64,000 bases of DNA from Candidatus Peribacteria bacterium (GCA_003483925.1 DMXL01000004.1:8242-72241), one strand, 5' to 3'; counted from the first letter of the stretch, positions 6,426 to 26,138 are shown. Numbers and translations are program-made. Notes: generated from the letters alone by a model not told the origin.

Positions 6426-7421
6426 ATGGCAACGACATCGGAGCGAGATTTGGGGGGCACAGAGACCGGCCAACCCGTACGGGACCCTCCCGTACCGGAG
6501 GGGGGTTTGTCGAAGCAAGCGGATCAACTGCTCGCGGAGTTTGCGGTTGCCAGCAGGCACTTCGAGGAGGCGCAGCACCTCGCGGGGTTCGCGGACGGCG
6601 TGGCGCAGGAGCTCATCAATCGCTTCAGCGTGCGCCGTCTCGTCGAGACCATCGTTTCCGTGAAGGAGAGGGGCGGCAGGCTTTTCTACGATGTCCTTTG
6701 CACGCTCATTCCCCGCAGAGCCGATCGCGGTGCTCTCTACGATGAGATTCATACGCGCGCTTCCCAAGTGCGCGAGTCGTACGCCGCGGCAGAGCAGGAG
6801 AACGGCGATCATCATACGCATGCCACCCCCAATCCTCATCGGGATGAATGGGAGACCGTACGGGCACAAGTACGCTACGTCGATTTTTGCAAGCGGCGGG
6901 ATGGACGCAGTATGCTCAAGCGGGTGCTCCAGGGGGCGAATGGCGTGGATGAAGCGGGTGTCGTCTGCCATCACTTCTCCACGTTCGCGATGACCGACCC
7001 CGAAGCGCTCATTGCCAGGTTGGAGGGATGCGGAGGGGATCTGCACGCTTACTACGATCGTGAGCTGAAATCTTTTCAGGCGCTCCTCGAGCGTATTCGC
7101 TCGTTCATCGGTACGGTGCAGCAAGATATCGCGCAGGTGCGTATGCGGGTGGCGAAGCAGGTGCCCTTCGTGATCCGCGGAGAGCAGCTCGATCGGGATC
7201 GCTTGCGCATGGAGAATACAATCTTTGAATCATCCCTCGGCCAGCGTGCGCAGGCACAGATGATCGATGTGCTGACAGGTGCCATCCATCAGCTGGAGGG
7301 AGAGGTGGCGGCTGCGGCGATGCGCGATCCCGAAGCGGTGACGTTGCACGGGATCATGGAACGTGTCCAGCGCGCAGTGGGCTTGGTGACGGAGAACGGC
7401 GGACGGACAGAGGAGATCTAG
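6426..7421 (+). CDS. Hypothetical protein
   Basis: The 331-aa ORF has protein-like composition (helical, charged). The overlapping antisense ORF 6324-7124 is Arg/His-rich and shadow-like. No family recognised. Confidence 0.6.
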   Translation: MATTSERDLGGTETGQPVRDPPVPEGGLSKQADQLLAEFAVASRHFEEAQHLAGFADGVAQELINRFSVRRLVETIVSVKERGGRLFYDVLCTLIPRRADRGALYDEIHTRASQVRESYAAAEQENGDHHTHATPNPHRDEWETVRAQVRYVDFCKRRDGRSMLKRVLQGANGVDEAGVVCHHFSTFAMTDPEALIARLEGCGGDLHAYYDRELKSFQALLERIRSFIGTVQQDIAQVRMRVAKQVPFVIRGEQLDRDRLRMENTIFESSLGQRAQAQMIDVLTGAIHQLEGEVAAAAMRDPEAVTLHGIMERVQRAVGLVTENGGRTEEI

Positions 7422-8035
7422 ATCTTCTCCAGCATCAGATTCATCATGGCCGGCGTCACGAGTTCGGCGAGTGGCGGATTGGCGGGGAGGATACCGCGCT
7501 TGACGAGTGCCTTCACGTAGGGCTCGTACCACACGGTCCTCGGACTCATCGGGTCCGTGGCCAGGCCGGCGGCTTTCGCGAGGATCTTGGACGCCTCGGC
7601 GATGTTGATGGGCTGAGAGGGTCGGAACGTGACATCGTCGTAGCCGCTCACGAGCCCCATAATCATCGCGGCGCAGAGAGACGGGCCGTACGTCGCGTCC
7701 TTTGGTACGTCGGTGAAGAGGAGGCGATAGTTGGAGGGGGAGAGTTGGTCGAAGCAATCGGCGGGAATGCCCGTGGGATGGAATTTCGCGACCATGGAGG
7801 CCACGAACTGTGCTCGTGTGACGACTGTTCCGGAGACGATGGTGACCAGCGGGAAGGTGATTCCTTCATCGACGGTCACGTTCTGGAAGACCGGTCGTAT
7901 GCTGTCCTCCGCTTCCGTCGAGAGAGGGCGACCGCTCGGAAGGCCGAACATGGAAGCGGGATATGCGAATGCGGTGTTTGCCGTGAGTAGCAGGACGAGG
8001 GGGGTGGAGAGGAAGGTCGAGAGGGCGCGGGACAT
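7418..8035 (-). CDS. SLH-domain secreted protein
   Basis: Signal peptide MSRALSTFLSTPLVLLLTANTAFA. The SLH block is FTDVPKDATYGPSLCAAMIMGLVSGYDDVTFRPSQPINIAEASKILAKA. Confidence 0.75.
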   Translation of the reverse strand: MSRALSTFLSTPLVLLLTANTAFAYPASMFGLPSGRPLSTEAEDSIRPVFQNVTVDEGITFPLVTIVSGTVVTRAQFVASMVAKFHPTGIPADCFDQLSPSNYRLLFTDVPKDATYGPSLCAAMIMGLVSGYDDVTFRPSQPINIAEASKILAKAAGLATDPMSPRTVWYEPYVKALVKRGILPANPPLAELVTPAMMNLMLEKI

Positions 8036-8200
8036 AATGTGAAAGGGGGAGAAAAGGGACTTAGTTTGGTCTGATTCTGTCAATGTTCGCAAGGACTTCG
8101 TGGGGAGAGTGTGGAGCAAACTTGTGTTCAGGAATTCGGGTGGAGCCCTGAGAGGAGATTAAAAGATTCATTTTGATTTCAAGGATCCCAATATCTCTCA

Positions 8201-10052: not shown

Positions 10053-13000
10053 TTACTGCTTCTGAAACCGGATCGTCACCTTCCTCCCGTCAAGTTCGAC
10101 CGTTAGCGGCTTCCCCTCATTGGCTTTCAGCTTGGACCGCGTTTCCTCTTCGAGGAGCGCTTTGCACGTTCCCACGATATCGTCGAATCCTTTGACGTCG
10201 AGATCGATGATGTCCGTGAAGGAGAGACCCGAGTCCTTGCGCATCTTCTGCACGGCGCGGATGAGATCACGCACGCAGCCCTCGAGTTTGAGATCAGTGG
10301 ATACGGTCGTGTCCAGTCCGACGACGACCCCGCGGTCCGCGGCGGCATCCATCCCTTCCTTCCCGCGGTAGGCGATCTGCACTTCTTCGGGGGCAAGGCG
10401 CTCTTCTCCGATCAGGATCATCCCGTCGGGTTGCACGTCGAATTCCCCGCGCTTGCCGGCGGCAATGATCTCCTGCACGCGCGCGCCGAGGCGCGGTCCG
10501 ACCTTGCGCGCATCCACGAGCGCGACCGTCTGCGCGAGCTTGCCCGGATCCGTGATGAAGGAGAGCTCTTTCACGTTCATCTCCTGGCGCAGGAGAGATC
10601 TGTCCTCGTCGGTAAGCGCGATGGAAGCGAAGGCGGGCGGCAGGGCGATGACTGCGCGCTTGAGCGGCTGGCGCGCCTTCATGTTCTTCTCCGAGCGCAC
10701 CGCATGCCCGAGCGAAACGATGAGCCGCAGCAGGCGGGTCTTCGCAAGGAGCTTATTTTCCGCATCGGTGAGTTTGCGGGCATCCGGCCAATCGGTTAAG
10801 TGCACCGAGCCGTGCTCCTGTGTGACGAGATTCAGGTAAATCGCATCGCTGATGTACGGGCAGAACGGAGCGAGGAGCTGGCTCATCGTCAGCAGAACGT
10901 CGTGGAGTGTCGAGAGCGCAGAGAGCCGGTCTTCCTCGTCCGCTTCCATCTCCGAGGTGTAGCTTGCGTCGGGGGCATCGATGCTCGCCTTGCCGGCGAA
11001 CCGGCGGCGCGATAAGCGGATGTACCAGTTCGTGAGTGCGTCGATCGTTTCGAAGAGCTCCGCGCAGGTGGCGGAGAGATCGTAGCGGTCGAGCTGCTCG
11101 GTCATGCGGTTACAGAGATCCTGCATCTCCGCGCGGATCCAGCGGTCGAGGGGATGAGCGGAGTGCTTGCGGTTTTCGACGGGCTCGTACTTCGCGGCAT
11201 TCGCGTACGTGACGAAGAAGCTGTAGGCGTTCCACAGTGGCAGGAGCACGGAGCGCACGCTCTCCTCCACGAGCTTGCCCGAGAAGCGCAGGTCCTCGCC
11301 GCGCACCGCGGACGAGCTCATGAGGGTGAAACGCACCGCGTCGGCGCCGTGCTTCTCGACGAGCTCCATCGGTTCGGGATAGTTCTTGAGCCGCTTGCTC
11401 ATCTTCTTCCCGTCCTCGGCCAGCACGATGCCGTTGACCACGCAATGCTGGAAGGCGGGTTGATCGAAGAGCGCCGTCGAAAGTACCATGAGCGTGTAGA
11501 ACCATCCGCGCGTCTGATCCATGCCCTCTGCGATGAAGTCGGCGGGGAAACCGGGAGGAAGCGACCCGGCTGGTTCGGACTCAAAGGGATAGTGCGATTG
11601 GGCGTAGGGCATCGAGCCCGACTCGAACCAGCAGTCGAAGACTTCGGAGACGCGTTCCATCGTGCCGCCGTTCGTTGCCTGCCACATGATCGAATCCACG
11701 GTCTCCCGGTGCAGGTCGAGCTGCGACTGCGTCGTGTGATCGAAGAAGAACGTGTAAGGGTCGGCGTAGACGGGGTAGGGCTGGTGGGAGAGCTTCACGG
11801 GATCCTCCTTCGTGAAGACATGACGGATATTGAGCAGCGGGTCCGCGTGCGTGACGAGGACGATGTGCTGTCCGCGGTGTCTCGGCAGGATCTCCGTCAG
11901 GAAGCTCGAGATGCGCACCTGCACGTCCTGCCACGTCTCCATCCCCGGGAAGTGGTAGATGCTCTCGGGGGCACTCTGCTGCAGTTTGTGCGCACGACGC
12001 GCTTTCACGAGGGAGAGATCCGAGAAATCGACGGTCTTCCCTTCGTACGAACCGAACCCCACCTCACGCAGACGATCGTCCGTGATCACCGGAGCATTGG
12101 TCGCCTCGGCTATCATTTTCGCCGTCTGCTGCGTGCGATCGAGCGGGGACGCATAGATGACCGAGATTTCCGCTCCGGCAAGGGCTCGGCCCGTTTCTTT
12201 TGCCTGTTTTTTCCCGCGAGCCGTGAGCGAGGTGCCGGGGACTGCCCCCTGGTACACCGGGATGAGGTTTCCTTCGCTCTCGCCGTGGCGCAGCACGGTG
12301 ACTTTCGTGAAGCGCTGGGGCGAGCGGGTCATGAGCTCATCGCGGCTCGAGATCACTTCGATCTCTCCCGACTTCGAGCAGCGCCAGATGGGCAGCGGCG
12401 TTCCCCAGAAGCGGTTTCTGGAGATCGCCCAGTCGCGCGCACCCTCGAGCCACTTGCCGAACCGCCCGGAGCGCACGTGATCGGGCACCCACTCCGTTTT
12501 CGCATTGGCCTTGAGGAGCCCCTCCTTGATTTCTTCGACCTTCACGAACCATGAGGAGGTCGTGTAAGGAAGGAGAGGGGTATCGCAGCGCCAGCAGTGC
12601 GGGTAGCTGTGAGTGAAGCTGAAGGAGGAGAACACCCTTCCCCGATCTTTCAGCTTGCCAATGATAGCCCGATCGGTCGCTTGCGGGTCTTTCCCTTCAG
12701 GCTTGGCTTGCATGCCGGCGAAGTCCTTCACGTCGCCGGAAAAAATGCCGTCGATGCCGAGATGCCACACGACATCCACGTCCTCTCCCACGGCGATGCG
12801 GTAACTGTCTTCACCCAGGCAGGACGTGGCATGGACGATGCCCGTTCCCTCGGCATCGGAGACTTCCACGTCGTCGTAGATCACGACTTTGAAGACGCGG
12901 TCGCCGTAGGTTTCCTTCGGTCTCTTCTTGCTGCTCGGCTTGTCGACGAAGTAGGGGAAGAGCGGCTCATATTTTTTCCCCGTCAGATCCTTCGGTTTCA

Positions 13001-13826
13001 CAGGACCAATGATTTGGAATTCCTTCCCTTTGAACACCTGATCCAGAAGCTTCCGGGCGAGAATGTATCGCTTGCCCTCCGATTCCACGAGCGCGTACTC
13101 GATGTTCCTGCCGATCGCGAGCCACATATTCCCCGGGAGCGACCAGGGGGTGGTCGTCCAAGCGAGGAGAGCGGTCTTCGGGTCATCCTTCAGGGGAAGG
13201 GTCACGATGACGGACAGGTCCGTCCGGTCCCGGTAGCCCTGTGCAACTTCGAAGTTGCTCAAGGGTGTGGCGCATCGGGGACAGATGTACATCGGCTTAT
13301 ACCCTTCGTAGACCAATCCCTTCCTGTGCAATTCCGAGAACACCCACCAGATGGACTCCATGTAGTCCGGGTCCATCGTCCGGTAGTCATTGTCCATGTC
13401 CACCCACCGTCCCATGCGCTCGACGACTTCGCGCCACTCCTTCGTGAAGCGCTGCACGGACTGGGCGCAGAGGCGGTTGAAGGCGCCGATACCCATCTCG
13501 CGGATCTGCTTGTGGGAGGCGATCTTGTACTCCTTCTCGATCAGATTCTCGACGGGCAGCCCGTGGCAGTCCCAGCCGAATCGCCGCTCCACTCTCTTGC
13601 CGCGCATCGTCTGGTAGCGGGGGATGACATCCTTGATCGTGCCGGCGAGCAGATGCCCGTAGTGGGGCAGCCCCGTGGCGAACGGCGGGCCGTCGTAGAA
13701 GCTGAAGGAATCCTCCGGACTGCGGTTGGAGATCGAGCGCTTGAAGATATCTTCCTCTTTCCAGTACTTGAGGATGCCGTGCTCCATGGCCGGCAGGGAT
13801 TGCCTCGGATCGACGGGGTCGAACAT
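10053..13826 (-). CDS. ileS: Isoleucyl-tRNA synthetase with an inserted histidine-phosphatase domain
   Basis: HIGH-type PHYGHLL and KMSKS-type KKMSKRL are present, along with WFESGSMPYAQ and WISRNRFWGTP-like blocks. I chose the start at MFDPVDPRQSL. For the insert at 11721-12314, see findings. Confidence 0.9.
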   Translation of the reverse strand: MFDPVDPRQSLPAMEHGILKYWKEEDIFKRSISNRSPEDSFSFYDGPPFATGLPHYGHLLAGTIKDVIPRYQTMRGKRVERRFGWDCHGLPVENLIEKEYKIASHKQIREMGIGAFNRLCAQSVQRFTKEWREVVERMGRWVDMDNDYRTMDPDYMESIWWVFSELHRKGLVYEGYKPMYICPRCATPLSNFEVAQGYRDRTDLSVIVTLPLKDDPKTALLAWTTTPWSLPGNMWLAIGRNIEYALVESEGKRYILARKLLDQVFKGKEFQIIGPVKPKDLTGKKYEPLFPYFVDKPSSKKRPKETYGDRVFKVVIYDDVEVSDAEGTGIVHATSCLGEDSYRIAVGEDVDVVWHLGIDGIFSGDVKDFAGMQAKPEGKDPQATDRAIIGKLKDRGRVFSSFSFTHSYPHCWRCDTPLLPYTTSSWFVKVEEIKEGLLKANAKTEWVPDHVRSGRFGKWLEGARDWAISRNRFWGTPLPIWRCSKSGEIEVISSRDELMTRSPQRFTKVTVLRHGESEGNLIPVYQGAVPGTSLTARGKKQAKETGRALAGAEISVIYASPLDRTQQTAKMIAEATNAPVITDDRLREVGFGSYEGKTVDFSDLSLVKARRAHKLQQSAPESIYHFPGMETWQDVQVRISSFLTEILPRHRGQHIVLVTHADPLLNIRHVFTKEDPVKLSHQPYPVYADPYTFFFDHTTQSQLDLHRETVDSIMWQATNGGTMERVSEVFDCWFESGSMPYAQSHYPFESEPAGSLPPGFPADFIAEGMDQTRGWFYTLMVLSTALFDQPAFQHCVVNGIVLAEDGKKMSKRLKNYPEPMELVEKHGADAVRFTLMSSSAVRGEDLRFSGKLVEESVRSVLLPLWNAYSFFVTYANAAKYEPVENRKHSAHPLDRWIRAEMQDLCNRMTEQLDRYDLSATCAELFETIDALTNWYIRLSRRRFAGKASIDAPDASYTSEMEADEEDRLSALSTLHDVLLTMSQLLAPFCPYISDAIYLNLVTQEHGSVHLTDWPDARKLTDAENKLLAKTRLLRLIVSLGHAVRSEKNMKARQPLKRAVIALPPAFASIALTDEDRSLLRQEMNVKELSFITDPGKLAQTVALVDARKVGPRLGARVQEIIAAGKRGEFDVQPDGMILIGEERLAPEEVQIAYRGKEGMDAAADRGVVVGLDTTVSTDLKLEGCVRDLIRAVQKMRKDSGLSFTDIIDLDVKGFDDIVGTCKALLEEETRSKLKANEGKPLTVELDGRKVTIRFQKQ

Positions 13827-13930
13827 GGTTCCAAGTGTATGCGGTCGGGGGCGTTTCGGAAACTTCAGATGGGAGAATTCGCGGTCAAGTGATTGGACAG
13901 GTCTGTATTCGGGGTACAATCCACCCCTTT

Positions 13931-15854: not shown

Positions 15855-15939
15855 ATAATTACACTGATAATTCCTTGCTTTTGCAACATTGGTGTGTAAA
15901 ATTGCACGCCCTTTGCCATTTTGGTATTTCTTCATATCC

Positions 15940-16959
15940 ATGGACGACGATTTAGACGACAACAGCGGCGGGGGAGGGGGACTGGTGCGGCTGGATAACC
16001 TCGAACAAGTCGTGGAGGAGGCCGCTGCAGCTGTGCAGAGGAATGAGTTAATCATGCAGCATTTCAATAGGTTGAGTGCGGATGTCCGGCGCAGTGTCAT
16101 TGCGTTCGTAACGAAGCCCAGTCGGCCACAGATTATCCGTCCCGATACGTTCGCAGAGAGGGAAGAGCTGGTTGCATGCGCGCGCGATCTCTTCGTGCGG
16201 CATCAAAAACTCAACAGAGCCAAGGACTTCGCTCAGGCGATTGAAGCGTGGAAAGCGGGGAATGGTGACGAATTCAAAAGATGGAGGGTTATTGCACAGT
16301 CCGTTGGCGGGTTCCTCGATGATTACCCGCAAGAGGAATTTGAGGGGCGCTTGGAAGATCTTCAACATTGGGCCATTGCGCGTGCCGCTCCCGTACGGGA
16401 GGGGGCGGGGGAACAGCAATTCGTGGCGGATATCCAAATCCATCTTCCCGATGATCATGATGCGGCGTCTGCTCCGGCGATTGCGCTCCTTCCGAAGAGA
16501 GAGGGCGATCTCAAATACGCCACAGATATGGGGAGGAGCTTGCTTGCAGGATTCGATCTGCGGAGGGTGGCTGTTGTCTCGGATATTTGCGCGGATGATT
16601 CATACGCGCACTGCGGATTCGCATCAGCTGCCCGGGATGCGGGTATCCGACGCGTGGAGGAGCTGAACGAGGGGCGAAAGATCCCCATAGACACTGTTCT
16701 TGCAGCGGTCTTCTCGATCAAGGGGCTGAAGAAACAGGACGGAGAGGTGATCCGCCCGCCGCTGGCCCTCAGTAATCTCATCAGCCTGAAGATCCATACG
16801 ATGAGCGGCAAATATCCCGCTGAGCTTGTCTGGTGCCTCACCGGTCGAAACGTCCCGGTTCATCTGGATGGGGATGATCCGACAAAACCGCCGAGTGAAT
16901 TGATTACTGATTGGGAAGTCTGTGCAACAACTTTGAATGCGGAGGGACAGGACCTATGA
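15940..16959 (+). CDS. Hypothetical protein (ORFan)
   Basis: ORF with an ATG at 15940 (MDDDLDDNSGGGGG). Acidic N-terminus, no TM span, no motif recognised. Confidence 0.5.
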   Translation: MDDDLDDNSGGGGGLVRLDNLEQVVEEAAAAVQRNELIMQHFNRLSADVRRSVIAFVTKPSRPQIIRPDTFAEREELVACARDLFVRHQKLNRAKDFAQAIEAWKAGNGDEFKRWRVIAQSVGGFLDDYPQEEFEGRLEDLQHWAIARAAPVREGAGEQQFVADIQIHLPDDHDAASAPAIALLPKREGDLKYATDMGRSLLAGFDLRRVAVVSDICADDSYAHCGFASAARDAGIRRVEELNEGRKIPIDTVLAAVFSIKGLKKQDGEVIRPPLALSNLISLKIHTMSGKYPAELVWCLTGRNVPVHLDGDDPTKPPSELITDWEVCATTLNAEGQDL

Positions 16960-19686
16960 GCGTGTGGCTGCGGAGTAGTACCACAGGAACACGAGGAGCA
17001 GCGGAGCGGCGATGAACGGAGTGAATGAGTGGGTGGAGAGAGCTTCGCCGATGATCGTGGAGAGGCAGACGAAGGGCAGCGCACGGTCGAGCAGGTCGCT
17101 CTTCACGCGGCGCATGGATTCGTAGTAGAGGCCGTACGGGAGCACCGAGAATACGATGACGAACAGGATGCTTCGCAACAGATCATTTGCGGGGAGTGTT
17201 TGAATGGTGGTGAAGGGGAGCAAGAGCAGCACGAACGGCATGCCGATGATGGAGAGCCAGAAGAGGAAGGCGGGGTAGCGTGCGTGGATTATCCCACGCT
17301 GATACCGGGCGCTCACTTCGGAGTAGAGGGCGAATCCGAGAGAGCTGACAGCTGCATAGAGGAGGCCTAAGGGGGAGGTGCCCTGGAGTAGGATGAGCAG
17401 GATGATGCCAAGTGTGATGATCACGAAGGAAAGGTGAAGCTGCCACCAGTGCATGGTGCGTACGGCGATATTTTTAAGAAGGGCGATGACGACGAGCCCC
17501 TCGATGATGAAGAGGATGTACTGGATGGGGGAGATGAGCTCCAGAGCGAGATAGGAACAGAATGCTGTGAGGAACAATGCGAGGGCGGAGGTGACGAGCG
17601 CGGGATGGCGGGGAGAGAGCGGCTTGAGTTTCTGGTTCGAGAACCTGCTCTGCAGTCCGTAGAGGATCGTCGTGGCGATAAACAGTGTGACGAAGCGGAT
17701 GAAAGTGAGGTCGGAAGGGGAAATGTCGGACTTCCAGAGGAGCAAGTGCGCGAAGACCGGATCGAGACCCCACAGGACGATGAGGATGAAGGAGGCGGCG
17801 ATGGATATATGCAGCGCAGTTCTCGTTACCAACGACCAATGTTCGTCCGGGAGAACGGTCTTCAGGAGCGCTCGCAATTCCTGCGATTGTTCGGCGGAGA
17901 GATCATAATCAGCGGTGATCTGGCAGTCCCCGTTCAGATGATGGAATGTAAGAGAGCGGGGAACGCCTATTCTCGTGGCTTTGCTGACGATGTCCGTCAA
18001 TGACGTCGGGAAACGTACGGAGAGATTCCAGCGCCTCTTCTCCGGCTGCGGTTTGCGGGATTTATGTTCCGGGAAGAGAGTACGCGCCGCCCTCTCTGCC
18101 TGGATCTTCCCTTCCGCGATCTGCTCATAGAGAGTTTCGAACGAGGAGATGCCGAGAGCGGAGAGGCGTTGCAGGAGGGCGGTCGTCTCCAGTTCGCCCC
18201 ATTCCACTTTCGCGTAGGTACGCACGGCGTGTTCGAGAAGGCTCTTCCCCAACATCATCTTCTGGCTTTCCGGGACTTGTGCGAGGCCTTGTCGGATGAA
18301 CGCGGAAGCAAGGCCCGTTCGCACGTTCCGGAGCCAGGGGAGCTCGACTTGCGGAAGATCCGCAAACGCAGCACTCACGCTGCAGCCATTCGACAATTCC
18401 TCGTAAAAGGGGACCTTGGTTCCGTTGATGAAAATATCTTTGGTGGTGAGACCTCTTTCCCCGAAGAGGTAGAAGATGGCATCGAGAGCCGTGGCGCTCG
18501 TGGGGAGAAGTTGCACGGTATCGTTCGGTCCGTGAATGGTGATGGATTCGCGGAGGATGTCGCTCTTGAGACTCTCCCAAAATTGTTCGCTTCGATCCTC
18601 GGAATCCTTCGAGAGGGCCGTGATGTGTTCGGTCCACGGGAGGTACGCCATGACGCCTGCAGCTTCGTTCTCGAAACACTTGGAAGCGATGCCCTTGCGG
18701 GCATACACGTGCATCTCGTGCGTGCGAATCTTGCAGCGGACACGCGTGCCGTCTTCGAGAATGATGGTCGTGTGCAGTCCTTGGTAACCGTTGATCTGCC
18801 GATGGTTGATGTAGTCCTCGAAGGAGAGAATCTCCTGCTGCCAGAGCTCGTGGAGCAAGCCCAGCACGCGATAGCATTCATCGGAGGTTTGTGTGAGGAA
18901 TACGATGGTATGTGCGGAGATGCCGGTGGCGGCGAAATCGCCGACGAGCACCTGGTTTCGCAGGCTCTCCCATGGCTTTTGTTCGAAGAGTACTTCAATG
19001 GGAAGGCTCTGCGGCGCAATCTTCGTGAGAGCATCCTTCATCTTCTGGGAGATCTTTTTCCCCTGAGGTTCGTTCTGCTTTCGCAGGGACTTGAGTTGTT
19101 GCAGGAGCTCCGGTTCGAGAACGCCTAAGCAATATTCTTCGAGCTCATCGCGCAGTTCCTGCATGCAGAGGCGATCTGCGATGGTCACGTAGACTTCACT
19201 CGTTTCTCTCGCGAGGGCTTCCTGTCTCTCGGGAGAAACGAACTCGATGGTTTGCATATTGTGGAGGCGGTCGACGAGCTTGAGGACGATAATGCGCACA
19301 TCTTTCTTCAGGAGGGTGAAGATCTTGCGGAGCGTCTCGATGCGATCGTCGAGGGTCGGATGTCCGTCGACGTCCTCGGGCATGAGCTTCGTCACGCCAT
19401 CGATGAGATCGGCGACGGTCGGGCCGAACCGCGCTCGCGCATCTTTCACGGTGAAGGGGGTGTCTTCGATGGTGTCATGGAGGAGGGCGGCGATCAGCGA
19501 GTCGGCGTCCGCCCCCATATCTGCGAGCATGTCGGCCGTTGCGAGCGGATGGGTGAAATAGGGGGCTCCTGATTTTCGAAGTTGGTTTCGGTGGAGCTCC
19601 ATGCCGAGTTCGAACGCCTGTCGCACGCGCTCCTGATCAGCGGCGGAAAGATGCCGAATATGCGTGCGGAACTCATTCCACTGCAT
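16954..19686 (-). CDS. RelA/SpoT homologue (HD hydrolase, degenerate synthetase-like, TGS, ACT-like) fused to a C-terminal 10-TM DMT/EamA-like domain
   Basis: HD blocks THPLATADML, LLHDTIEDT and DRLHNMQT. Synthetase-like block NGYQGLHTTIILEDGTRVRCKIRTHEMH. TGS-like block ITIHGPNDTVQLLPTSATALDAIFYL. Roughly ORF aa 623-910 form ten hydrophobic spans. Confidence 0.8.
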   Translation of the reverse strand: MQWNEFRTHIRHLSAADQERVRQAFELGMELHRNQLRKSGAPYFTHPLATADMLADMGADADSLIAALLHDTIEDTPFTVKDARARFGPTVADLIDGVTKLMPEDVDGHPTLDDRIETLRKIFTLLKKDVRIIVLKLVDRLHNMQTIEFVSPERQEALARETSEVYVTIADRLCMQELRDELEEYCLGVLEPELLQQLKSLRKQNEPQGKKISQKMKDALTKIAPQSLPIEVLFEQKPWESLRNQVLVGDFAATGISAHTIVFLTQTSDECYRVLGLLHELWQQEILSFEDYINHRQINGYQGLHTTIILEDGTRVRCKIRTHEMHVYARKGIASKCFENEAAGVMAYLPWTEHITALSKDSEDRSEQFWESLKSDILRESITIHGPNDTVQLLPTSATALDAIFYLFGERGLTTKDIFINGTKVPFYEELSNGCSVSAAFADLPQVELPWLRNVRTGLASAFIRQGLAQVPESQKMMLGKSLLEHAVRTYAKVEWGELETTALLQRLSALGISSFETLYEQIAEGKIQAERAARTLFPEHKSRKPQPEKRRWNLSVRFPTSLTDIVSKATRIGVPRSLTFHHLNGDCQITADYDLSAEQSQELRALLKTVLPDEHWSLVTRTALHISIAASFILIVLWGLDPVFAHLLLWKSDISPSDLTFIRFVTLFIATTILYGLQSRFSNQKLKPLSPRHPALVTSALALFLTAFCSYLALELISPIQYILFIIEGLVVIALLKNIAVRTMHWWQLHLSFVIITLGIILLILLQGTSPLGLLYAAVSSLGFALYSEVSARYQRGIIHARYPAFLFWLSIIGMPFVLLLLPFTTIQTLPANDLLRSILFVIVFSVLPYGLYYESMRRVKSDLLDRALPFVCLSTIIGEALSTHSFTPFIAAPLLLVFLWYYSAATRS

Positions 19687-19734
19687 AGCATGGAAGTGTA
19701 TATCATCTTTGACGCTTTGGATAGCGCAATTCTC

Positions 19735-20217
19735 TTATTCCTTGAGGAGAGAAAGGATGTAGGTTTGGACGTTGGAGAAGATCTCCGTCGACGGATCGAG
19801 AGCCTCGATTTCTCTTAAGGTGAACCACTTCAGTTCCCGACCTTCGGTTTCATCGAGCGAGAGACCTTGGGAGGCATCGAGGGGGCGGGCGAGGTACACG
19901 AAATCCATGTGCTGGTGTGCCGGTTCGTTCCTTTCGGCCGATGCGGGAATCTCTTCGAGGAGGAGTGCGACGGGGCTTTTCAGCATGCGGCCTTCCGCGG
20001 GATTGGACACAAACATATCCTCTTGTTCCATGCCGATGATCTCCACATCGAGTCCCGTCTCCTCCTTGCACTCGCGTTTGGCGGTCTCCTCCGGCGTCTC
20101 ATTGTCTTCGATGTGCCCGCCCGGCGGCATCCAGCGGCCCAAGCGCTTGTGCCACAGAAGCAGCGTGCGTTTGTGATCATCGACGACGAAGGCGGTGGAG
20201 GTGAAGTGGCGGGGCAT
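19735..20217 (-). CDS. NUDIX hydrolase
   Basis: The Nudix box is GGHIEDNETPEETAKRECKEETGL. I chose the start at MPRHFTS because the upstream part of the ORF is the translated repeat element. Confidence 0.8.
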   Translation of the reverse strand: MPRHFTSTAFVVDDHKRTLLLWHKRLGRWMPPGGHIEDNETPEETAKRECKEETGLDVEIIGMEQEDMFVSNPAEGRMLKSPVALLLEEIPASAERNEPAHQHMDFVYLARPLDASQGLSLDETEGRELKWFTLREIEALDPSTEIFSNVQTYILSLLKE

Positions 20218-20298
20218 GGAGGGAAGGATAGACAAGCGAATGAGGCAAAGAAAGGAAGGATGAGCGTCTACGATTCTCGTTCTTGAGAGTCGTCCGTT

Positions 20299-20417
20299 TT
20301 CCCTCTCCCGACGGGAGAGGGTTAGGGAGAGGGGGTCCACTAGTATCTTTGGATGAGATGCACTCAATACTTTCAATTGACCCCCTCCCCTCCATCCCCT
20401 CCCGTCGGGAGGGGAGG
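20299..20417. repeat. Paired GC-rich palindromic modules (second locus of the 9868-9979 family)
   Basis: A 40-mer at 20299-20338 is identical to 9940-9979. The partner module GACCCCCTCCCCTCCATCCCCTCCCGTCGGGAGGGGAGG is at 20379-20417. Module order is swapped relative to the first locus. Confidence 0.85.
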
Positions 20418-20448
20418 TGTGTATGCTCTTTGAGAAACCGTAGTTCCT

Positions 20449-23612: not shown

Positions 23613-24188
23613 GTGTTCACCGGCATCATCGAAGCAACGGCTGCAGTCAGAGCTTGCGACAACGGGAAACTCTCCGTTGAGCGACCGCGAATCTTTGATG
23701 ATGTGCAGGTGGGATCGAGCATCTGCGTCTCCGGCGTTTGTCTGACAGTGAAGGCGAGTGATGCGCAGTCCCTCACGTTCGATACGGTCCCCGAAACGCT
23801 GGCCAAAACCACACTCGGTGCGCTGAACCCCGGCGACAGGGTGAATCTCGAACGGGCACTCTCTGCATCCGGCCGCTTCGAGGGGCACATCGTGCAGGGG
23901 CACGCAGAGGGGGCGGGGGAAGTGACGGAGATACAACCGTGCGAAGATGAGAGCAGGGAACTCGTGATCCGGTTGCCTCAGAGTCTGGCGCGTCGCGCCG
24001 TCTCGAAGGGGTCCATCGCCGTCGACGGCGTGTCCCTCACGATCGCAGAGGTGGACGGATGCGATGTGCGCATCGCTCTCATTCCTCATACGCTCGAGTC
24101 GACGACGTTGGGTTCATTGAATGTCAGCGACCATGTGAACATCGAAACGGATATCCTCGGTCGGTACATCGAAAAACTTCTCCCCTAA
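23613..24188 (+). CDS. ribE: Riboflavin synthase alpha chain
   Basis: MFTGIIEATAAV plus duplicated lumazine-binding halves (GSSICVSGVCLTV / GSIAVDGVSLTI). The start codon is GTG. Confidence 0.9.
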   Translation: MFTGIIEATAAVRACDNGKLSVERPRIFDDVQVGSSICVSGVCLTVKASDAQSLTFDTVPETLAKTTLGALNPGDRVNLERALSASGRFEGHIVQGHAEGAGEVTEIQPCEDESRELVIRLPQSLARRAVSKGSIAVDGVSLTIAEVDGCDVRIALIPHTLESTTLGSLNVSDHVNIETDILGRYIEKLLP

Positions 24189-24758: not shown

Positions 24759-26138
24759 ATGCGCAAAATCGGAACTCTCCTCCTGACACTGCTCTTCCTG
24801 CCGAGCGGTGTTGCATTTGCACAACTCGATGCGCCCATCTTCCCCGATGTTCCGGTAGGGCACATCTATCGCGAAGCGATCGAGGCACTCGTGGGTGCGC
24901 GCGTGATCGACGGGAACCCCGATGGGAACTTCTACCCGGAGCGTGCGGTGAATCGCGCCGAGATGATCAAGATGCTCTACAGGGCCAAAGGACGCGTTCC
25001 CGATCCGGCGAACAAAGACTGCTTCAAGGATGTGGAGCGTCAGAGCTGGTACGAGACGTTCATCTGTGATGCGGCTGCGAATCATTTCGTGGACGGATAC
25101 GGCGATGCCACATTCCGTCCGGCCAATCTCGTGAATCGTGTGGAGGCGATCAAGATGATCACCACCGTGTTCGGGATATCGGTCGATGACTACACGGAAG
25201 CAGATCGTTCTCTCGTGAAGTTCGTCGATGTCTCGACGTCCGCGTGGTACACGAAGTACCTCTCCACCGCTTTCAAGAAGGGGATTCTGCCGATCGCGGG
25301 ACAGGTTAGCGGGCACTTCAGTCCGGATTGGCCGCTCCTGCGCGGGGAGGCGGCTGCTTACATCTTCAATGCGTTGAATGTGCAGTTTACAGAGGAGCGC
25401 ACGCCGTCTTCATCAAGTGCCGCTTCGTCTCAGGTTTCGCAGTCCGAAGCTGAGACTTCCTCTTCCGCAGAGCAGACGAGCTCGGCGGCAGCCTCTTCCG
25501 CGGTCGCAGCTTCCTATGAGGCGGATTTCCCATTTTCGATGAACGGAAAGTTCTCGGGCAAGAAGTCCTCCTCCTATACCTTCAGCCTTGCGAAGAACAC
25601 GGTGATGCTCATTGAGGCGGGCTTGCAGTCCGGACAGGCGGGCACAGTGAGCTGTCGGCTCTACCTGTTGGGTGACGAAGGATTCTCAGATCAATACTTC
25701 CTCGGATTCCAGGAGGGGAGTCAGTGTTTCCTGAAGGTCGCCATCGGACCGGGCGATTACCAGCTCCAGCTCCAGCCGACGGTTGCGGATGTGACGTACA
25801 CGGTGGCTGCAGCTGATGCGACCGGCGATGGCAACGACGGATTCATCCAGTCGGTGAAGATCAAGCGCGGCGATACGCGTACGGAGATGCTCAGCGAAGG
25901 CGATTTCCAGGATTTCTACTCCTTCACCGTCGACACACCGAGGAGCATGACAGTCGTCCTCTCGAACGCGGGACAGCTCTCCTGCCTCGTGTACGCGATG
26001 GGGAATGTGGATCTCTTCGGCTTCACCGGCCCGACGTGCAATCAGTCCTACACCTACCCGACGGGTACCTACACCGTCTCTGTCGCGCGCAAGGCCTCGA
26101 GAACGGCCAAGCAGACGTACACGATTCAGGTGAAGTAA
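24759..26138 (+). CDS. SLH-domain surface protein with Ser-rich linker and PPC-like C-terminal domain
   Basis: A signal peptide is followed by three SLH-like repeats (FPDVPVGHIYREAIEALV..., FKDVERQSWYETFICDAA..., FVDVSTSAWYTKYLSTAF...). GDFQDFYSFTV resembles pre-peptidase C-terminal domains. Confidence 0.75.
   Translation: MRKIGTLLLTLLFLPSGVAFAQLDAPIFPDVPVGHIYREAIEALVGARVIDGNPDGNFYPERAVNRAEMIKMLYRAKGRVPDPANKDCFKDVERQSWYETFICDAAANHFVDGYGDATFRPANLVNRVEAIKMITTVFGISVDDYTEADRSLVKFVDVSTSAWYTKYLSTAFKKGILPIAGQVSGHFSPDWPLLRGEAAAYIFNALNVQFTEERTPSSSSAASSQVSQSEAETSSSAEQTSSAAASSAVAASYEADFPFSMNGKFSGKKSSSYTFSLAKNTVMLIEAGLQSGQAGTVSCRLYLLGDEGFSDQYFLGFQEGSQCFLKVAIGPGDYQLQLQPTVADVTYTVAAADATGDGNDGFIQSVKIKRGDTRTEMLSEGDFQDFYSFTVDTPRSMTVVLSNAGQLSCLVYAMGNVDLFGFTGPTCNQSYTYPTGTYTVSVARKASRTAKQTYTIQVK

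What the first reader, a model, noticed from the sequence alone, without database searches (positions are those of the whole stretch)
16954..20217. RelA/SpoT homologue with degenerate synthetase fused to a 10-TM DMT/EamA-like domain, co-oriented behind a Nudix gene
The 910-aa ORF has a well-conserved HD hydrolase region (HPLATADML, LLHDTIEDT, DRLHNMQT), a TGS-like segment and an ACT-like segment. Instead of ending there, it continues for about 290 aa (16954-17820) as ten hydrophobic spans arranged like a drug/metabolite-transporter (EamA x2) fold. In the synthetase-like region, the positions I would align with the catalytic acidic residues are replaced: the expected DxxGxR strand reads GISAHTIVF, and the expected E-x-Q-IRT reads RCKIRT. 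That suggests a hydrolase-only enzyme with a pseudo-synthetase. A Nudix hydrolase gene sits 48 nt upstream on the same strand, and some Nudix enzymes are known to degrade (p)ppGpp. Tethering an alarmone hydrolase to a transporter-like module could couple metabolite flux or sensing at the membrane to alarmone levels. I am not aware of a described RSH with this architecture.
Basis: partly seen in the sequence, partly recalled or inferred. Interest (0 to 1): 0.75.

Follow-up and report, generated by a model that had tools for sequence, protein, structure and literature searches.

The report
Membrane-embedded alarmone hydrolase fused to transporter
This gene from an uncultured Peribacteria (candidate phyla radiation) bacterium encodes a stress-signal (ppGpp) degrading enzyme of the RelA/SpoT family that has lost its signal-making site and its ribosome-docking zinc-finger domain and is instead fused to a ten-helix transporter-like membrane domain, a conserved architecture I could not find described in the papers I searched.

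Summary
ORF 16954-19686 (-) encodes a 910-aa long RSH. It has an intact HD hydrolase domain and a synthetase fold that lacks both Mg2+-binding acidic residues: the D264 position is deleted in 105/106 family members and E323 is Arg in 105/106. After these come Core, TGS-like and helical domains, a predicted ACT/RRM-like βαββαβ unit, and then a 10-TM DMT/EamA module. There is no zinc-finger domain. The AlphaFold2 model is confident (pLDDT 91, pTM 0.80). Its best PDB match is the hydrolase-only SpoT of A. baumannii, and its C-terminal part matches the DMT transporters TPT, SLC35B1 and YddG. The fusion is not an artefact: more than 120 full-length protein clusters at 40-86% identity carry it, and the named ones come from Peribacteria/Peregrinibacteria. 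A Nudix gene lies 48 nt upstream on the same strand, and this pairing recurs in 12 of 19 related loci. A second, longer RSH-DMT paralogue family (about 1,100 aa) exists in the same lineage. The best reading is a membrane-integral, hydrolase-only, SpoT-like enzyme in which a transporter-like module replaces ribosome sensing. The catalytic assignments rest on sequence only. Coupling between transporter and hydrolase is inferred. I found no paper describing this architecture. Verdict: new variant of a known kind, interest about 0.65.

The parts
16954..19686 (-). Whole RSH-DMT gene (910 aa plus stop). It is identical to GenBank OGJ84097.1/HAI98828.1, 'hypothetical protein [Candidatus Peribacteria bacterium]'.
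19117..19686 (-). HD (p)ppGpp-hydrolase domain, residues 1-190. All canonical catalytic motifs are invariant in the family: H..Q.R.SG, H46, H70-D71, E74-D75, E117..R120-K121, D139-R140-x-H142-N143.
   Evidence: Pfam HD_4 2.4e-35; invariant columns; alignment to canonical Rel/SpoT; Foldseek matches to Rel/SpoT N-terminal structures with TMt 0.83-0.87
18667..18996 (-). Pseudo-synthetase (SYNTH fold), residues 231-340. The D264 position is deleted, E323 is Arg, Q325 is Lys, and R241, K251, R269, R295, K297 and K304 are replaced. The guanine-contacting N306, Y308 and H312, and also R327, are retained.
   Evidence: Pfam RelA_SpoT 6e-15, partial, profile 32-105/113; per-site counts in 106 sequences; alignments
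18547..18666 (-). Core helix-turn-helix between pseudo-SYNTH and TGS, residues 341-380. It is strongly conserved (LPWT..RS.EFW.SLQSDILGESI) and its length is nearly fixed at 41-43 aa.
18352..18546 (-). TGS-like β-grasp, residues 381-445. The conserved His of the canonical DFAYxIHT motif is F/Y/L in 105 of 106 sequences.
   Evidence: AF2 secondary structure; TIGR00691 alignment; column counts; no Pfam TGS hit
18067..18351 (-). α-helical (AH/HEL) domain, residues 446-540.
   Evidence: Pfam RelA_AH_RIS 455-549, covering only profile positions 4-94 of 185; AF2 helices
17824..18036 (-). Predicted ACT/RRM-like βαββαβ unit, residues 551-621. It is the least conserved domain (17% mean identity to the query). 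Its last strand runs straight into TM1.
   Evidence: AF2 elements E551-560, H561-571, E578-584, E587-596, H598-611, E617-621; conservation; junction length 23-28 aa
16957..17823 (-). 10-TM DMT/EamA module, residues 622-910, with N-in/C-in topology. TM1 carries an invariant W639-G640-x-D642-P643; R664 in TM2 is 99% conserved; Y712, Y723 and Y851 are invariant.
   Evidence: Pfam EamA; AF2 ten helices; Foldseek 5y78_A TMt 0.73, SLC35B1 0.71-0.73, YddG 5i20 0.67; positive-inside counts
19687..19734 (-). 48-nt spacer between the Nudix stop codon and the RSH-DMT start codon. The consensus scans find no promoter-like or terminator-like site in it.
19735..20217 (-). Nudix hydrolase gene, 160 aa from the conserved ATG, with an intact Nudix box (GHIEDNETPEETAKRECKEETGL). 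It is 60-70% identical across relatives.
   Evidence: Pfam NUDIX 1.6e-17; PDB best hits 3f6a and 1jrk, both uncharacterised; adjacency in relatives
20304..20412 (-). Long, very stable hairpin in the UvrA-Nudix intergenic region. It may be a terminator or insulator that sets the Nudix-RSH pair apart from uvrA.
   Evidence: Weak palindromic Rfam matches; fold of 20295-20425: -77.5 kcal/mol, z = -7.5; single copy in the window

Best explanation
The gene encodes a membrane-integral, hydrolase-only long RSH, functionally SpoT-like and written [Hs] in RSH nomenclature, that is specific to Peribacteria/Peregrinibacteria. Shown by sequence and structure prediction: the cytoplasmic N-terminal HD domain keeps every residue needed for Mn2+-dependent removal of the 3'-pyrophosphate of (p)ppGpp. 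The SYNTH fold is kept under purifying selection but has lost both Mg2+-coordinating acidic residues and most ATP- and GDP-phosphate-contacting basic residues, so it cannot make alarmone. It does keep the guanine-stacking Tyr, Asn and His. The Core, TGS-like, helical and ACT/RRM-like domains follow. The zinc-finger domain and the TGS histidine are gone. The ACT/RRM-like unit runs without a linker into TM1 of a 10-TM DMT/EamA module, whose topology leaves the whole RSH part in the cytoplasm. Inferred: the ribosome/tRNA input of canonical Rel has been replaced by the DMT module. The conformational or substrate-occupancy state of that module, for an unknown metabolite, would be relayed through the ACT/RRM-like unit, pseudo-SYNTH and Core to tune the hydrolase, much as the C-terminal domains tune hydrolysis in A. 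baumannii SpoT. The enzyme would then lower alarmone levels according to what is available at, or crossing, the membrane. That would make sense for an organism reported to depend on externally derived amino acids. The upstream Nudix gene is probably co-transcribed. Its substrate is unknown.
For: Domain parsing. Catalytic-site audit in 106 homologues. HD motifs are invariant, D264 is deleted in 105/106, E323 is R in 105/106, Q325 is K in 106/106, and N306 and Y308 are kept in 106/106 and H312 in 104/106. AF2 model with pLDDT 91.3 and pTM 0.80, showing a βαββαβ unit at 551-621 running directly into ten TM helices. Foldseek: the best hit is the full-length hydrolase-only SpoT 7qpr (5.6e-28), and the C-terminus matches DMT structures 5y78, 9gry/9i20 and 5i20 (TMt 0.67-0.73). 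EamA in 16 of 20 C-termini. Family-wide positive-inside pattern (inside loops 2.0-3.2 K+R, outside loops 0.2-0.3). Conserved intramembrane polar residues (WGxDP in TM1, R664 in TM2, Y712, Y723, Y851) argue that the module is more than an anchor. The junction length is constrained to 23-28 aa. ZFD absent. TGS His lost. Fusion conserved in more than 120 clusters, and full-length matches in the GTDB scan come only from genomes titled Peribacteria/Peribacterales/Peregrinibacteria plus one unclassified MAG (L013). Precedent: SpoT of A. baumannii is a hydrolase-only long RSH with a regulatory pseudo-SYNTH, and its CTD, including RRM-pseudo-SYNTH contacts, allosterically tunes hydrolysis (PMC9974481, read). 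Ecology: Peribacteria encode nucleotide synthesis but few amino-acid biosynthesis genes and are inferred to rely on externally derived amino acids (PMC4736985). Nudix pairing.
Against: No activity was measured, so hydrolase competence and substrate are inferred from motifs. Nothing shows directly that the DMT state affects the hydrolase. The ACT/RRM-like unit that would relay the signal is the least conserved domain (17% identity). The cytoplasmic loops of the DMT are not significantly more conserved than the outer loops (0.45 vs 0.39, p = 0.25). The DMT module fits no curated transporter subfamily, so its ligand is unknown. I could not inspect the inter-domain contacts of the model. I could not establish that the organism makes (p)ppGpp: no other SYNTH-like ORF was found in the window or in about 255 kb of related DNA, and paralogue 2 is at best partly synthetase-like.
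Confidence: 0.5

Rival explanations
1. Control runs the other way. The DMT module is a working transporter (importer or exporter of an amino acid, nucleotide or other metabolite), and the RSH part is its cytoplasmic regulatory domain. It would sense (p)ppGpp at the HD site, or a guanine nucleotide at the pseudo-SYNTH site, and gate transport, with hydrolysis serving mainly to reset the sensor.
For: The DMT has conserved intramembrane charged and polar residues typical of a substrate cavity (D642, R664, Y712, Y723, Y851). Its closest folds are real transporters, including the nucleotide and nucleotide-sugar carriers SLC35B1, CST and Vrg4. The pseudo-SYNTH keeps the guanine-binding N306, Y308 and H312 almost invariantly and gains basic residues (R317, K319), which would fit a ligand-binding role.
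Against: All catalytic HD residues are invariant, so strong selection acts on catalysis and not only on binding. There is no precedent for an RSH acting as a transporter regulator. No subfamily assignment or substrate hint was found.
Confidence: 0.2
2. Anchor only. The DMT-derived domain merely tethers a constitutive or otherwise regulated alarmone hydrolase to the membrane, for instance near a host-contact site, without ligand sensing or transport.
For: The relay domain is poorly conserved. Cytoplasmic loops are not preferentially conserved. TM5 and TM10 are poorly conserved. The DMT fits no curated transporter subfamily.
Against: Ten helices with invariant buried Asp, Arg and Tyr residues, and near-fixed spacing between them (R664 to Y712 is 49 aa in 99 of 106 sequences), are far more than an anchor needs. 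The module has been kept in two paralogue families.
Confidence: 0.15
3. The substrate is not (p)ppGpp. The HD domain would act on another 3'-phosphorylated nucleotide, such as (p)ppApp or, as reported for the metazoan homologue Mesh1, NADPH. This could be because the organism makes no (p)ppGpp itself, or because it must detoxify alarmones delivered by neighbours.
For: No intact synthetase was found in paralogue 1 (0 of 106) or anywhere in 255 kb of Peribacteria DNA. Foldseek also matches MESH1 in complex with NADPH and with PAPS (5vxa, 9chy). Exported (p)ppApp/(p)ppGpp synthetases exist in bacteria (PMC12691689).
Against: The HD motifs are those of canonical (p)ppGpp-hydrolysing long RSHs, and the best matches are Rel/SpoT structures, several bound to ppGpp or pppGpp. 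34 of 79 paralogue-2 proteins retain both catalytic acidic residues, so an endogenous source is not excluded.
Confidence: 0.1
4. Assembly or annotation artefact. A missed stop codon or frameshift near 17.8-17.9 kb joins a SpoT-like gene to a separate EamA transporter gene.
For: None found.
Against: The identical 910-aa protein is recorded on 15 contigs from several sources. More than 120 clusters at 40-86% identity have the same uninterrupted length of about 900-930 aa. 12 GTDB genomes show tblastn matches spanning residue 1 to beyond residue 855. The junction length is conserved. AF2 models the junction confidently.
Confidence: 0.01

Closest known systems
Hydrolase-only SpoT of Acinetobacter baumannii / Moraxellaceae (SpoT[Hs]; PDB 7qpr; Tamman et al. 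2022, PMC9974481)
   Same: It is a long RSH with an active-type HD domain, a catalytically dead but retained pseudo-SYNTH, a short structured Core, and TGS, helical and RRM/ACT domains. It is the best structural match to the model. In it, the C-terminal domains regulate hydrolysis.
   Different: SpoT_Ab is soluble, has a ZFD and has no membrane domain. Its pseudo-SYNTH lost the guanine-stacking Tyr (Y329 to N304 per the paper), whereas the Peribacteria protein keeps N306, Y308 and H312 almost invariantly. The loss of synthetase is independent: the Peribacteria proteins form their own clade apart from the canonical Rel/SpoT sampled, and are only about 29% identical to them.
Canonical bifunctional Rel (for example B. 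subtilis Rel 6yxa, mycobacterial Rel 8fr8/5xnx, RelSeq 1vj7)
   Same: The domain order HD-SYNTH-Core-TGS-AH is shared, and the sequence similarity is the strongest found (phmmer 1.6e-69 to 5.4e-64). HD chemistry is conserved.
   Different: Rel has an active synthetase (D264, E323 and others) and ribosome- and tRNA-sensing elements (TGS His, ZFD, RRM). Here the synthetase site is destroyed, the ZFD is absent, the TGS His is replaced and a 10-TM DMT is appended. TIGR00691 scores 370 bits, below its 499-bit cutoff, and covers only profile positions 1-532 of 687.
DMT-superfamily transporters (EamA family; YddG 5i20, triose-phosphate/phosphate translocator 5y78, SLC35B1 9gry/9i20, CMP-sialic acid and GDP-mannose transporters)
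   Same: The fold is a 10-TM 5+5 arrangement over about 300 aligned columns with TMt 0.56-0.73. The Pfam EamA match is above threshold. The topology is N-in/C-in.
   Different: The known members listed here are not described as fused to an RSH. Sequence identity to them is 11-18%. No curated subfamily matches. TM1 carries a distinctive invariant WGxDP motif. Transport has not been shown.
Small alarmone hydrolases / Mesh1 (for example 3nr1, 5vxa, RelH 7qoc)
   Same: These are HD-domain alarmone hydrolases that act without a synthetase in the same polypeptide, and in metazoa without any synthetase in the genome. They match the HD domain structurally.
   Different: They are single-domain and soluble, with no pseudo-SYNTH, TGS, AH or membrane module.
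Transporter-like sensor domains fused to signalling enzymes (for example the ammonium-transporter-histidine-kinase fusion Ks-Amt5). Recalled from memory, not checked here.
   Same: The concept is the same: a membrane transporter fold serves as the input domain of a cytoplasmic signalling enzyme (a 'transceptor').
   Different: The transporter family and the output domain both differ. I know of no case where the output is an alarmone hydrolase.
Paralogue 2 of the same lineage (about 1,100-aa RSH-DMT proteins, P0121-P0200; L005:2621-5920)
   Same: It has an HD domain with intact motifs, a degenerate SYNTH, no ZFD, an ACT-like unit and a C-terminal EamA 10-TM module. It groups with paralogue 1 in 200 of 200 NJ bootstraps.
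   Different: It has about 190 extra residues with additional hydrophobic, TM-like stretches before the EamA part. It is only about 30% identical in the RSH part and 13% in the DMT part. 34 of 79 members keep both catalytic acidic residues. Its genomic context differs. It is not present in this window.

Membership tests
RelA/SpoT homologue (RSH) superfamily, long RSH | N-terminal HD (HD_4) alarmone-hydrolase domain | tested here: met
   PF13328 at 2.4e-35 over profile 1-153 of 156; phmmer to Rel/SpoT structures down to 1.6e-69
RelA/SpoT homologue (RSH) superfamily, long RSH | RelA_SpoT (SYNTH) fold following the HD domain | tested here: met
   PF04607 at 6e-15, 55.9 bits against a cutoff of 27, although only profile positions 32-105 of 113 match; AF2 and Foldseek superpose on Rel N-terminal structures with TMt 0.83-0.87
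RelA/SpoT homologue (RSH) superfamily, long RSH | Full C-terminal regulatory region: TGS, helical, zinc-finger (ZFD/RIS) and ACT/RRM domains | tested here: not met
   TGS-like and ACT/RRM-like units are seen only in the predicted structure. The AH_RIS profile matches only positions 4-94 of 185. There is no ZFD segment. TIGR00691 scores 370 bits, below its 499 cutoff, and covers profile 1-532 of 687.
Monofunctional hydrolase-type long RSH ([Hs], as in Moraxellaceae SpoT). This is a functional class, not orthology. | HD catalytic residues intact | tested here: met
   H46, H70, D71, E74, D75, E117, R120, K121, D139, R140, H142 and N143 are invariant in 106 sequences and align with canonical Rel/SpoT
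Monofunctional hydrolase-type long RSH ([Hs], as in Moraxellaceae SpoT). This is a functional class, not orthology. | Residues critical for SYNTH activity lost | tested here: met
   D264 is deleted in 105/106, E323 is R in 105/106, Q325 is K in 106/106, and R241, K251, R269, R295, K297 and K304 are replaced
Monofunctional hydrolase-type long RSH ([Hs], as in Moraxellaceae SpoT). This is a functional class, not orthology. | Demonstrated (p)ppGpp hydrolysis and absence of synthesis | not testable with these tools
   This needs enzyme assays or E. coli complementation as in PMC9974481
Proteobacterial SpoT (orthologous group) | Descent from the RelA/SpoT duplication in Beta- and Gammaproteobacteria | tested here: not met
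   The Peribacteria proteins form a separate clade (200 of 200 NJ bootstraps) and are about 29% identical to all canonical sequences sampled. The lowest mean distances are to Saccharibacteria, Ktedonobacteraceae (Chloroflexi) and Nanopelagicales (actinobacterial) Rel, not SpoT. NF008303 (SpoT equivalog) scores 282 bits against a cutoff of 947.
Drug/metabolite transporter (DMT) superfamily, EamA family | EamA repeat detected by sequence profile | tested here: met
   PF00892 scores 29.4 bits (full protein) and 33.1 bits (C-terminus alone) against a cutoff of 28.2. 16 of 20 family C-termini match, best E-value 4e-10.
Drug/metabolite transporter (DMT) superfamily, EamA family | Ten TM helices in a 5+5 arrangement with both termini cytoplasmic | tested here: met
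   AF2 gives ten helices at 622-909. Foldseek matches YddG, TPT and SLC35 over about 300 columns. The positive-inside pattern holds across the family.
Drug/metabolite transporter (DMT) superfamily, EamA family | Substrate transport | not testable with these tools
   No curated subfamily is assigned. Reconstitution assays are needed.
Nudix hydrolase (upstream gene) | Nudix fold and Nudix box GX5EX7REUXEEXGU | tested here: met
   PF00293 at 64.2 bits against a cutoff of 21.1. The box GHIEDNETPEETAKRECKEETGL was read from the translation. PDB hits 3f6a and 1jrk score about 1e-16.
   The best solved relatives are uncharacterised (3f6a, 1jrk). All NCBIfam equivalogs score far below their cutoffs. 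Only the conserved gene pairing supports a link.

The most novel reading that the evidence does not exclude
Peribacteria have moved their whole alarmone metabolism to the membrane. Two paralogous RSH-DMT fusion proteins would replace the ribosome-coupled Rel of other bacteria. Both lack the ribosome-binding zinc finger. One is strictly hydrolase-only (this gene). The other is at most a weak synthetase. Each would use a transporter-fold module as its input. In the strongest version there is no endogenous synthetase at all, and these enzymes sense, import or destroy alarmones or related nucleotides that originate from the host or from neighbouring cells. That would let a symbiont read or defuse its partner's stringent response.
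Probability: 0.12. Interest if true: 0.9.

Novelty: new variant of a known kind. Interest (0 to 1): 0.65.

Why it matters
Long RSH enzymes are the master switches of the bacterial stringent response. The well-studied ones (Rel, RelA, SpoT) are soluble, and Rel and RelA take their main input from the ribosome, while SpoT uses protein partners. A large, conserved clade of long RSHs that are integral membrane proteins would add a new class of input to alarmone control. These proteins have no synthetase site, no zinc-finger domain and no TGS histidine, and they are joined directly to a transporter fold. They occur in a candidate-phyla-radiation lineage with small genomes and a presumed symbiotic lifestyle. 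The protein offers a ready-made natural system for asking how a C-terminal module sets hydrolase output in long RSHs. It also makes a specific question testable: whether these organisms produce alarmones at all, or only degrade them.

Tried and rejected
1. Gene-fusion artefact: rejected by comparative data.
2. A hidden intact synthetase after proper alignment: rejected for this family, 0 of 106.
3. Another synthetase or small alarmone synthetase nearby: an HMM of canonical SYNTH domains, run with --max against all six-frame ORFs of the window plus 15 Peribacteria loci (255 kb), found only the RSH-DMT genes. This is not a whole-genome test.
4. Paralogue 2 in the window: absent, including at the position syntenic with L006.
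5. Substrate hint for the DMT module from NCBIfam: nothing useful. A profile search of PDB sequences found only YddG, at E = 0.09.
6. Cytoplasmic DMT loops as a conserved docking surface: not significant.
7. Riboswitch or other known RNA around the operon: none. Only weak palindromic matches appeared, and they turned out to be a long hairpin.
8. Sigma-70-like promoter or intrinsic terminator in the 48-nt spacer: none. The scans are of limited value for this lineage.
Four protein-based look-ups replaced it.
10. Literature: Atkinson 2011 and Jimmy 2020 do not mention membrane-fused long RSHs. The Peribacteria genome paper does not mention SpoT or the stringent response. Full-text searches found nothing relevant. 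The supplementary tables of Jimmy 2020 are not held.

Full report
OBSERVATION. The 910-aa ORF at 16954-19686 on the minus strand is real, and its N-terminus matches the consensus of its homologues. Pfam finds HD_4 (24-173, 2.4e-35), a partial RelA_SpoT domain (264-336, 6e-15, profile positions 32-105 of 113), the helical half of RelA_AH_RIS (455-549) and EamA (773-864, just above threshold). NCBIfam's RelA/SpoT subfamily model aligns to residues 24-553. It covers only profile positions 1-532 of 687 and scores 370 bits, below its 499-bit cutoff. The Nudix gene is best read as 19735-20217 (-), 160 aa, starting at the ATG that relatives share. It ends exactly 48 nt before the RSH start codon.

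CATALYTIC SITES. I aligned the protein to solved Rel/RelA/SpoT sequences, to canonical Rel/SpoT taken from fetched loci, and across 106 family members.
- Every canonical HD motif is invariant: H..Q.R.SG, H46, H70-D71, E74-D75, E117..R120-K121 and D139-R140-x-H142-N143.
- In the synthetase fold (RelSeq numbering) the D264 position is deleted in 105/106, E323 is Arg in 105/106 and Q325 is Lys in 106/106.
- Also replaced are R241 (to Glu in 95), K251 (to Gln in 93), R269 (to Val/Ala/Ile), R295 (to Ser in 97), K297 (to Gln/Glu in 99) and K304 (variable).
- N306 and Y308 are kept in 106/106, H312 in 104/106 and R327 in 104/106.
Which residues bind Mg2+, ATP and GDP is established knowledge from the RelSeq and Rel structures, recalled from memory. 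The fold is still well conserved (55% mean identity to the query, against 62% for the HD domain). It is a maintained pseudo-enzyme domain rather than a decaying one.

STRUCTURE. AlphaFold2 with the 106-sequence alignment gives a confident model (pLDDT 91.3, pTM 0.80). The domains in order are:
- HD, residues 1-190
- a long linker helix
- pseudo-SYNTH, 231-340
- a helix-turn-helix Core, 341-380
- a β-grasp TGS-like unit, 381-441
- a helical domain, 451-537
- a βαββαβ ACT/RRM-like unit, 551-621
- ten long helices, 622-909
The last strand of the ACT/RRM-like unit (617-621) runs directly into TM1, with no linker. No zinc-finger domain is present. Foldseek against the PDB ranks the full-length, hydrolase-only SpoT of A. 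baumannii first (7qpr, 5.6e-28). Rel and RelA structures follow. The C-terminal 300 residues match DMT-superfamily transporters: triose-phosphate/phosphate translocator 5y78 (TMt 0.73), SLC35B1 (0.71-0.73), YddG 5i20 (0.67), and the CMP-sialic acid and GDP-mannose transporters. EamA is detected by sequence in 16 of 20 family C-termini. Loop charges obey the positive-inside rule across the family: 2.0-3.2 K+R in the loops predicted to be cytoplasmic and 0.2-0.3 in the outer loops. This places the RSH part and the C-terminus in the cytoplasm. TM1 has an invariant W-G-x-D-P motif, TM2 a nearly invariant Arg, and TM3, TM4 and TM8 invariant Tyr residues, with near-fixed spacing between them. The conserved His of the canonical DFAYxIHT motif in TGS is Phe, Tyr or Leu in 105 of 106 sequences. 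In RelA that His contacts the tRNA 3' end; this is my recollection.

NOT AN ARTEFACT, AND CLADE-SPECIFIC. The window protein is identical to GenBank entries annotated 'hypothetical protein [Candidatus Peribacteria bacterium]' and is recorded on 15 contigs of up to 506 kb. A search of 5.8 billion proteins lists 120 hits, nearly all about 900-930 aa long, at 40-86% identity and more than 93% coverage. Those that carry a name are from Peribacteria or Peregrinibacteria. In one-genome-per-species GTDB contigs, matches that span the whole protein occur in genomes titled Peribacteria, Peribacterales or Peregrinibacteria, plus one unclassified MAG (L013). All other hits stop at about residue 470-600, as expected for ordinary Rel/SpoT.

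CONTEXT. The neighbourhood is uvrA, then Nudix, then RSH-DMT, then a convergent unannotated ORF, then an M20 peptidase, then a class-I tRNA synthetase. It is broadly syntenic among relatives. The Nudix gene lies immediately upstream and co-oriented, with gaps of about 46-110 nt, in 12 of 19 related loci. In two more, an opposite-strand gene has been inserted between the two. The genes between uvrA and Nudix (a metallophosphatase, a peroxiredoxin) come and go, while the Nudix-RSH pair stays together. This Nudix type is 60-70% identical among relatives and was not found beside any of the canonical Rel/SpoT loci fetched. Its nearest solved relatives are uncharacterised. The gene pairing is therefore solid, but a role in alarmone breakdown remains only a hypothesis. 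That some Nudix enzymes degrade (p)ppGpp is my recollection and was not checked here. The scans find no promoter-like or terminator-like site in the 48-nt spacer. A very stable hairpin (-77.5 kcal/mol, z = -7.5) lies between uvrA and Nudix.

A SECOND PARALOGUE. Two relatives (L005, L006) carry, within a few kilobases, a second RSH fused to an EamA module. This is a family of its own: about 85 clusters of roughly 1,090-1,130 aa from the same lineage. It has intact HD motifs, no ZFD, an ACT-like unit, additional hydrophobic TM-like stretches and then the EamA part. Its synthetase site is also degenerate: R269, K304 and Q325 are essentially never kept. However, 34 of 79 members retain both catalytic acidic residues with Lys-to-Arg swaps, so residual synthetase activity cannot be excluded there. 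The two paralogues group together against 23 canonical Rel/SpoT sequences in 200 of 200 neighbour-joining bootstraps. Long-branch attraction is a caveat. They also share derived traits: ZFD loss, the FWxxLQSDIL Core motif and a basic residue at the Q325 position. Their DMT modules are homologous but only 13% identical (hhalign probability 96%, E = 2e-9). One ancestral fusion followed by duplication is the simplest reading. Paralogue 2 is not in this 64-kb window.

MECHANISM. Shown by sequence and structure prediction:
- a cytoplasmic HD domain with a complete catalytic set
- a dead but conserved SYNTH fold
- no ZFD and no TGS histidine
- a rigid junction into an N-in/C-in DMT module with conserved intramembrane polar residues
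Inferred: the protein degrades (p)ppGpp at the membrane, and the DMT module has replaced the ribosome as its regulatory input. The best experimental analogue is SpoT of A. baumannii. There the pseudo-SYNTH is regulatory, and the C-terminal domains, including RRM-pseudo-SYNTH contacts, tune hydrolysis through the Core (PMC9974481). Peribacteria are reported to encode nucleotide synthesis but few amino-acid biosynthesis genes, and to rely on external amino acids (PMC4736985). Coupling alarmone removal to something sensed or carried at the membrane is therefore plausible. Three findings weigh against a finely tuned relay. The ACT/RRM-like unit is the least conserved part. Cytoplasmic DMT loops are not preferentially conserved. 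The DMT fits no known substrate class. The rival readings are transport gated by the RSH part, a simple anchor, and a non-ppGpp substrate. They are listed with their tests.

NOVELTY. The RSH survey papers (Atkinson 2011, Jimmy 2020) do not mention membrane-fused long RSHs. The Peribacteria genome paper does not mention SpoT or the stringent response. Full-text searches combining RelA/SpoT, RSH, ppGpp, EamA, transmembrane, Peregrinibacteria and CPR found nothing relevant. Public records call these proteins 'hypothetical protein', 'HD domain-containing protein' or generic GTP pyrophosphokinase. One automated JGI label does list both halves. The parts are well known. The combination and what it implies are not described in anything I could search. 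I rate it a new variant of a known kind, with interest about 0.65.

Noticed in passing
L005:2621-5920 (-), L006:10029-12944 (-), L082:10001-13306; proteins P0121-P0200: A second family of RSH-DMT fusion proteins (about 1,100 aa) occurs in Peribacteria/Peregrinibacteria. It has extra hydrophobic TM-like stretches before the EamA module and no ZFD, and 34 of 79 members keep both synthetase acidic residues. It lies adjacent to paralogue 1 in L005 and about 3 kb away in L006. In L082 it sits next to pyrimidine-synthesis genes. It is absent from this window.
   Followed up: partly
window 10053-13919 (-): A 1,288-aa class-I tRNA synthetase (tRNA-synt_1, Anticodon_1, DUF5915; isoleucyl-type by domain set) has a histidine-phosphatase domain (His_Phos_1, 8e-37) inserted at residues 541-704, between the halves of the catalytic core. 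The same arrangement is seen in five relatives.
   Followed up: no
window 20304-20412 (intergenic, between uvrA and the Nudix gene): A G/C-rich hairpin of about 110 nt is very stable (-77.5 kcal/mol, z = -7.5 against shuffles). It occurs once in the window and produced weak palindromic matches to miRNA-precursor models. It may be a uvrA terminator or insulator.
   Followed up: partly
window 15889-16959 (+): A 356-aa ORF with no Pfam match is convergent with the RSH-DMT gene and overlaps its stop codon by 6 nt. A similarly placed, unannotated ORF of 325-352 aa on the opposite strand is present in relatives (L001, L163, L164, L165), and L006 shows weak similarity (24.7% identity).
   Followed up: no
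window 16957-18996 (pseudo-SYNTH at 18667-18996): The dead synthetase pocket is not merely degraded. It has gained invariant basic and Cys residues (R317-C318-K319 in place of E-x-Q) while keeping the guanine-contacting N, Y and H. This could mean it has been repurposed as a Mg2+-independent nucleotide-binding (allosteric) site.
   Followed up: no
window 24759-26138 (+) and 7418-8119 (-): Two proteins contain S-layer homology (SLH) domains. A riboflavin synthase alpha-chain gene lies at 23613-24188 (+).
   Followed up: no
L050, L057, L075 (Saccharibacteria loci): The RSH genes of the Saccharibacteria loci read so far (L050, L057) are short (about 500-520 aa) and keep an intact synthetase motif (E.QIRT, D264). 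RSH architecture therefore seems to vary considerably between CPR lineages.
   Followed up: no
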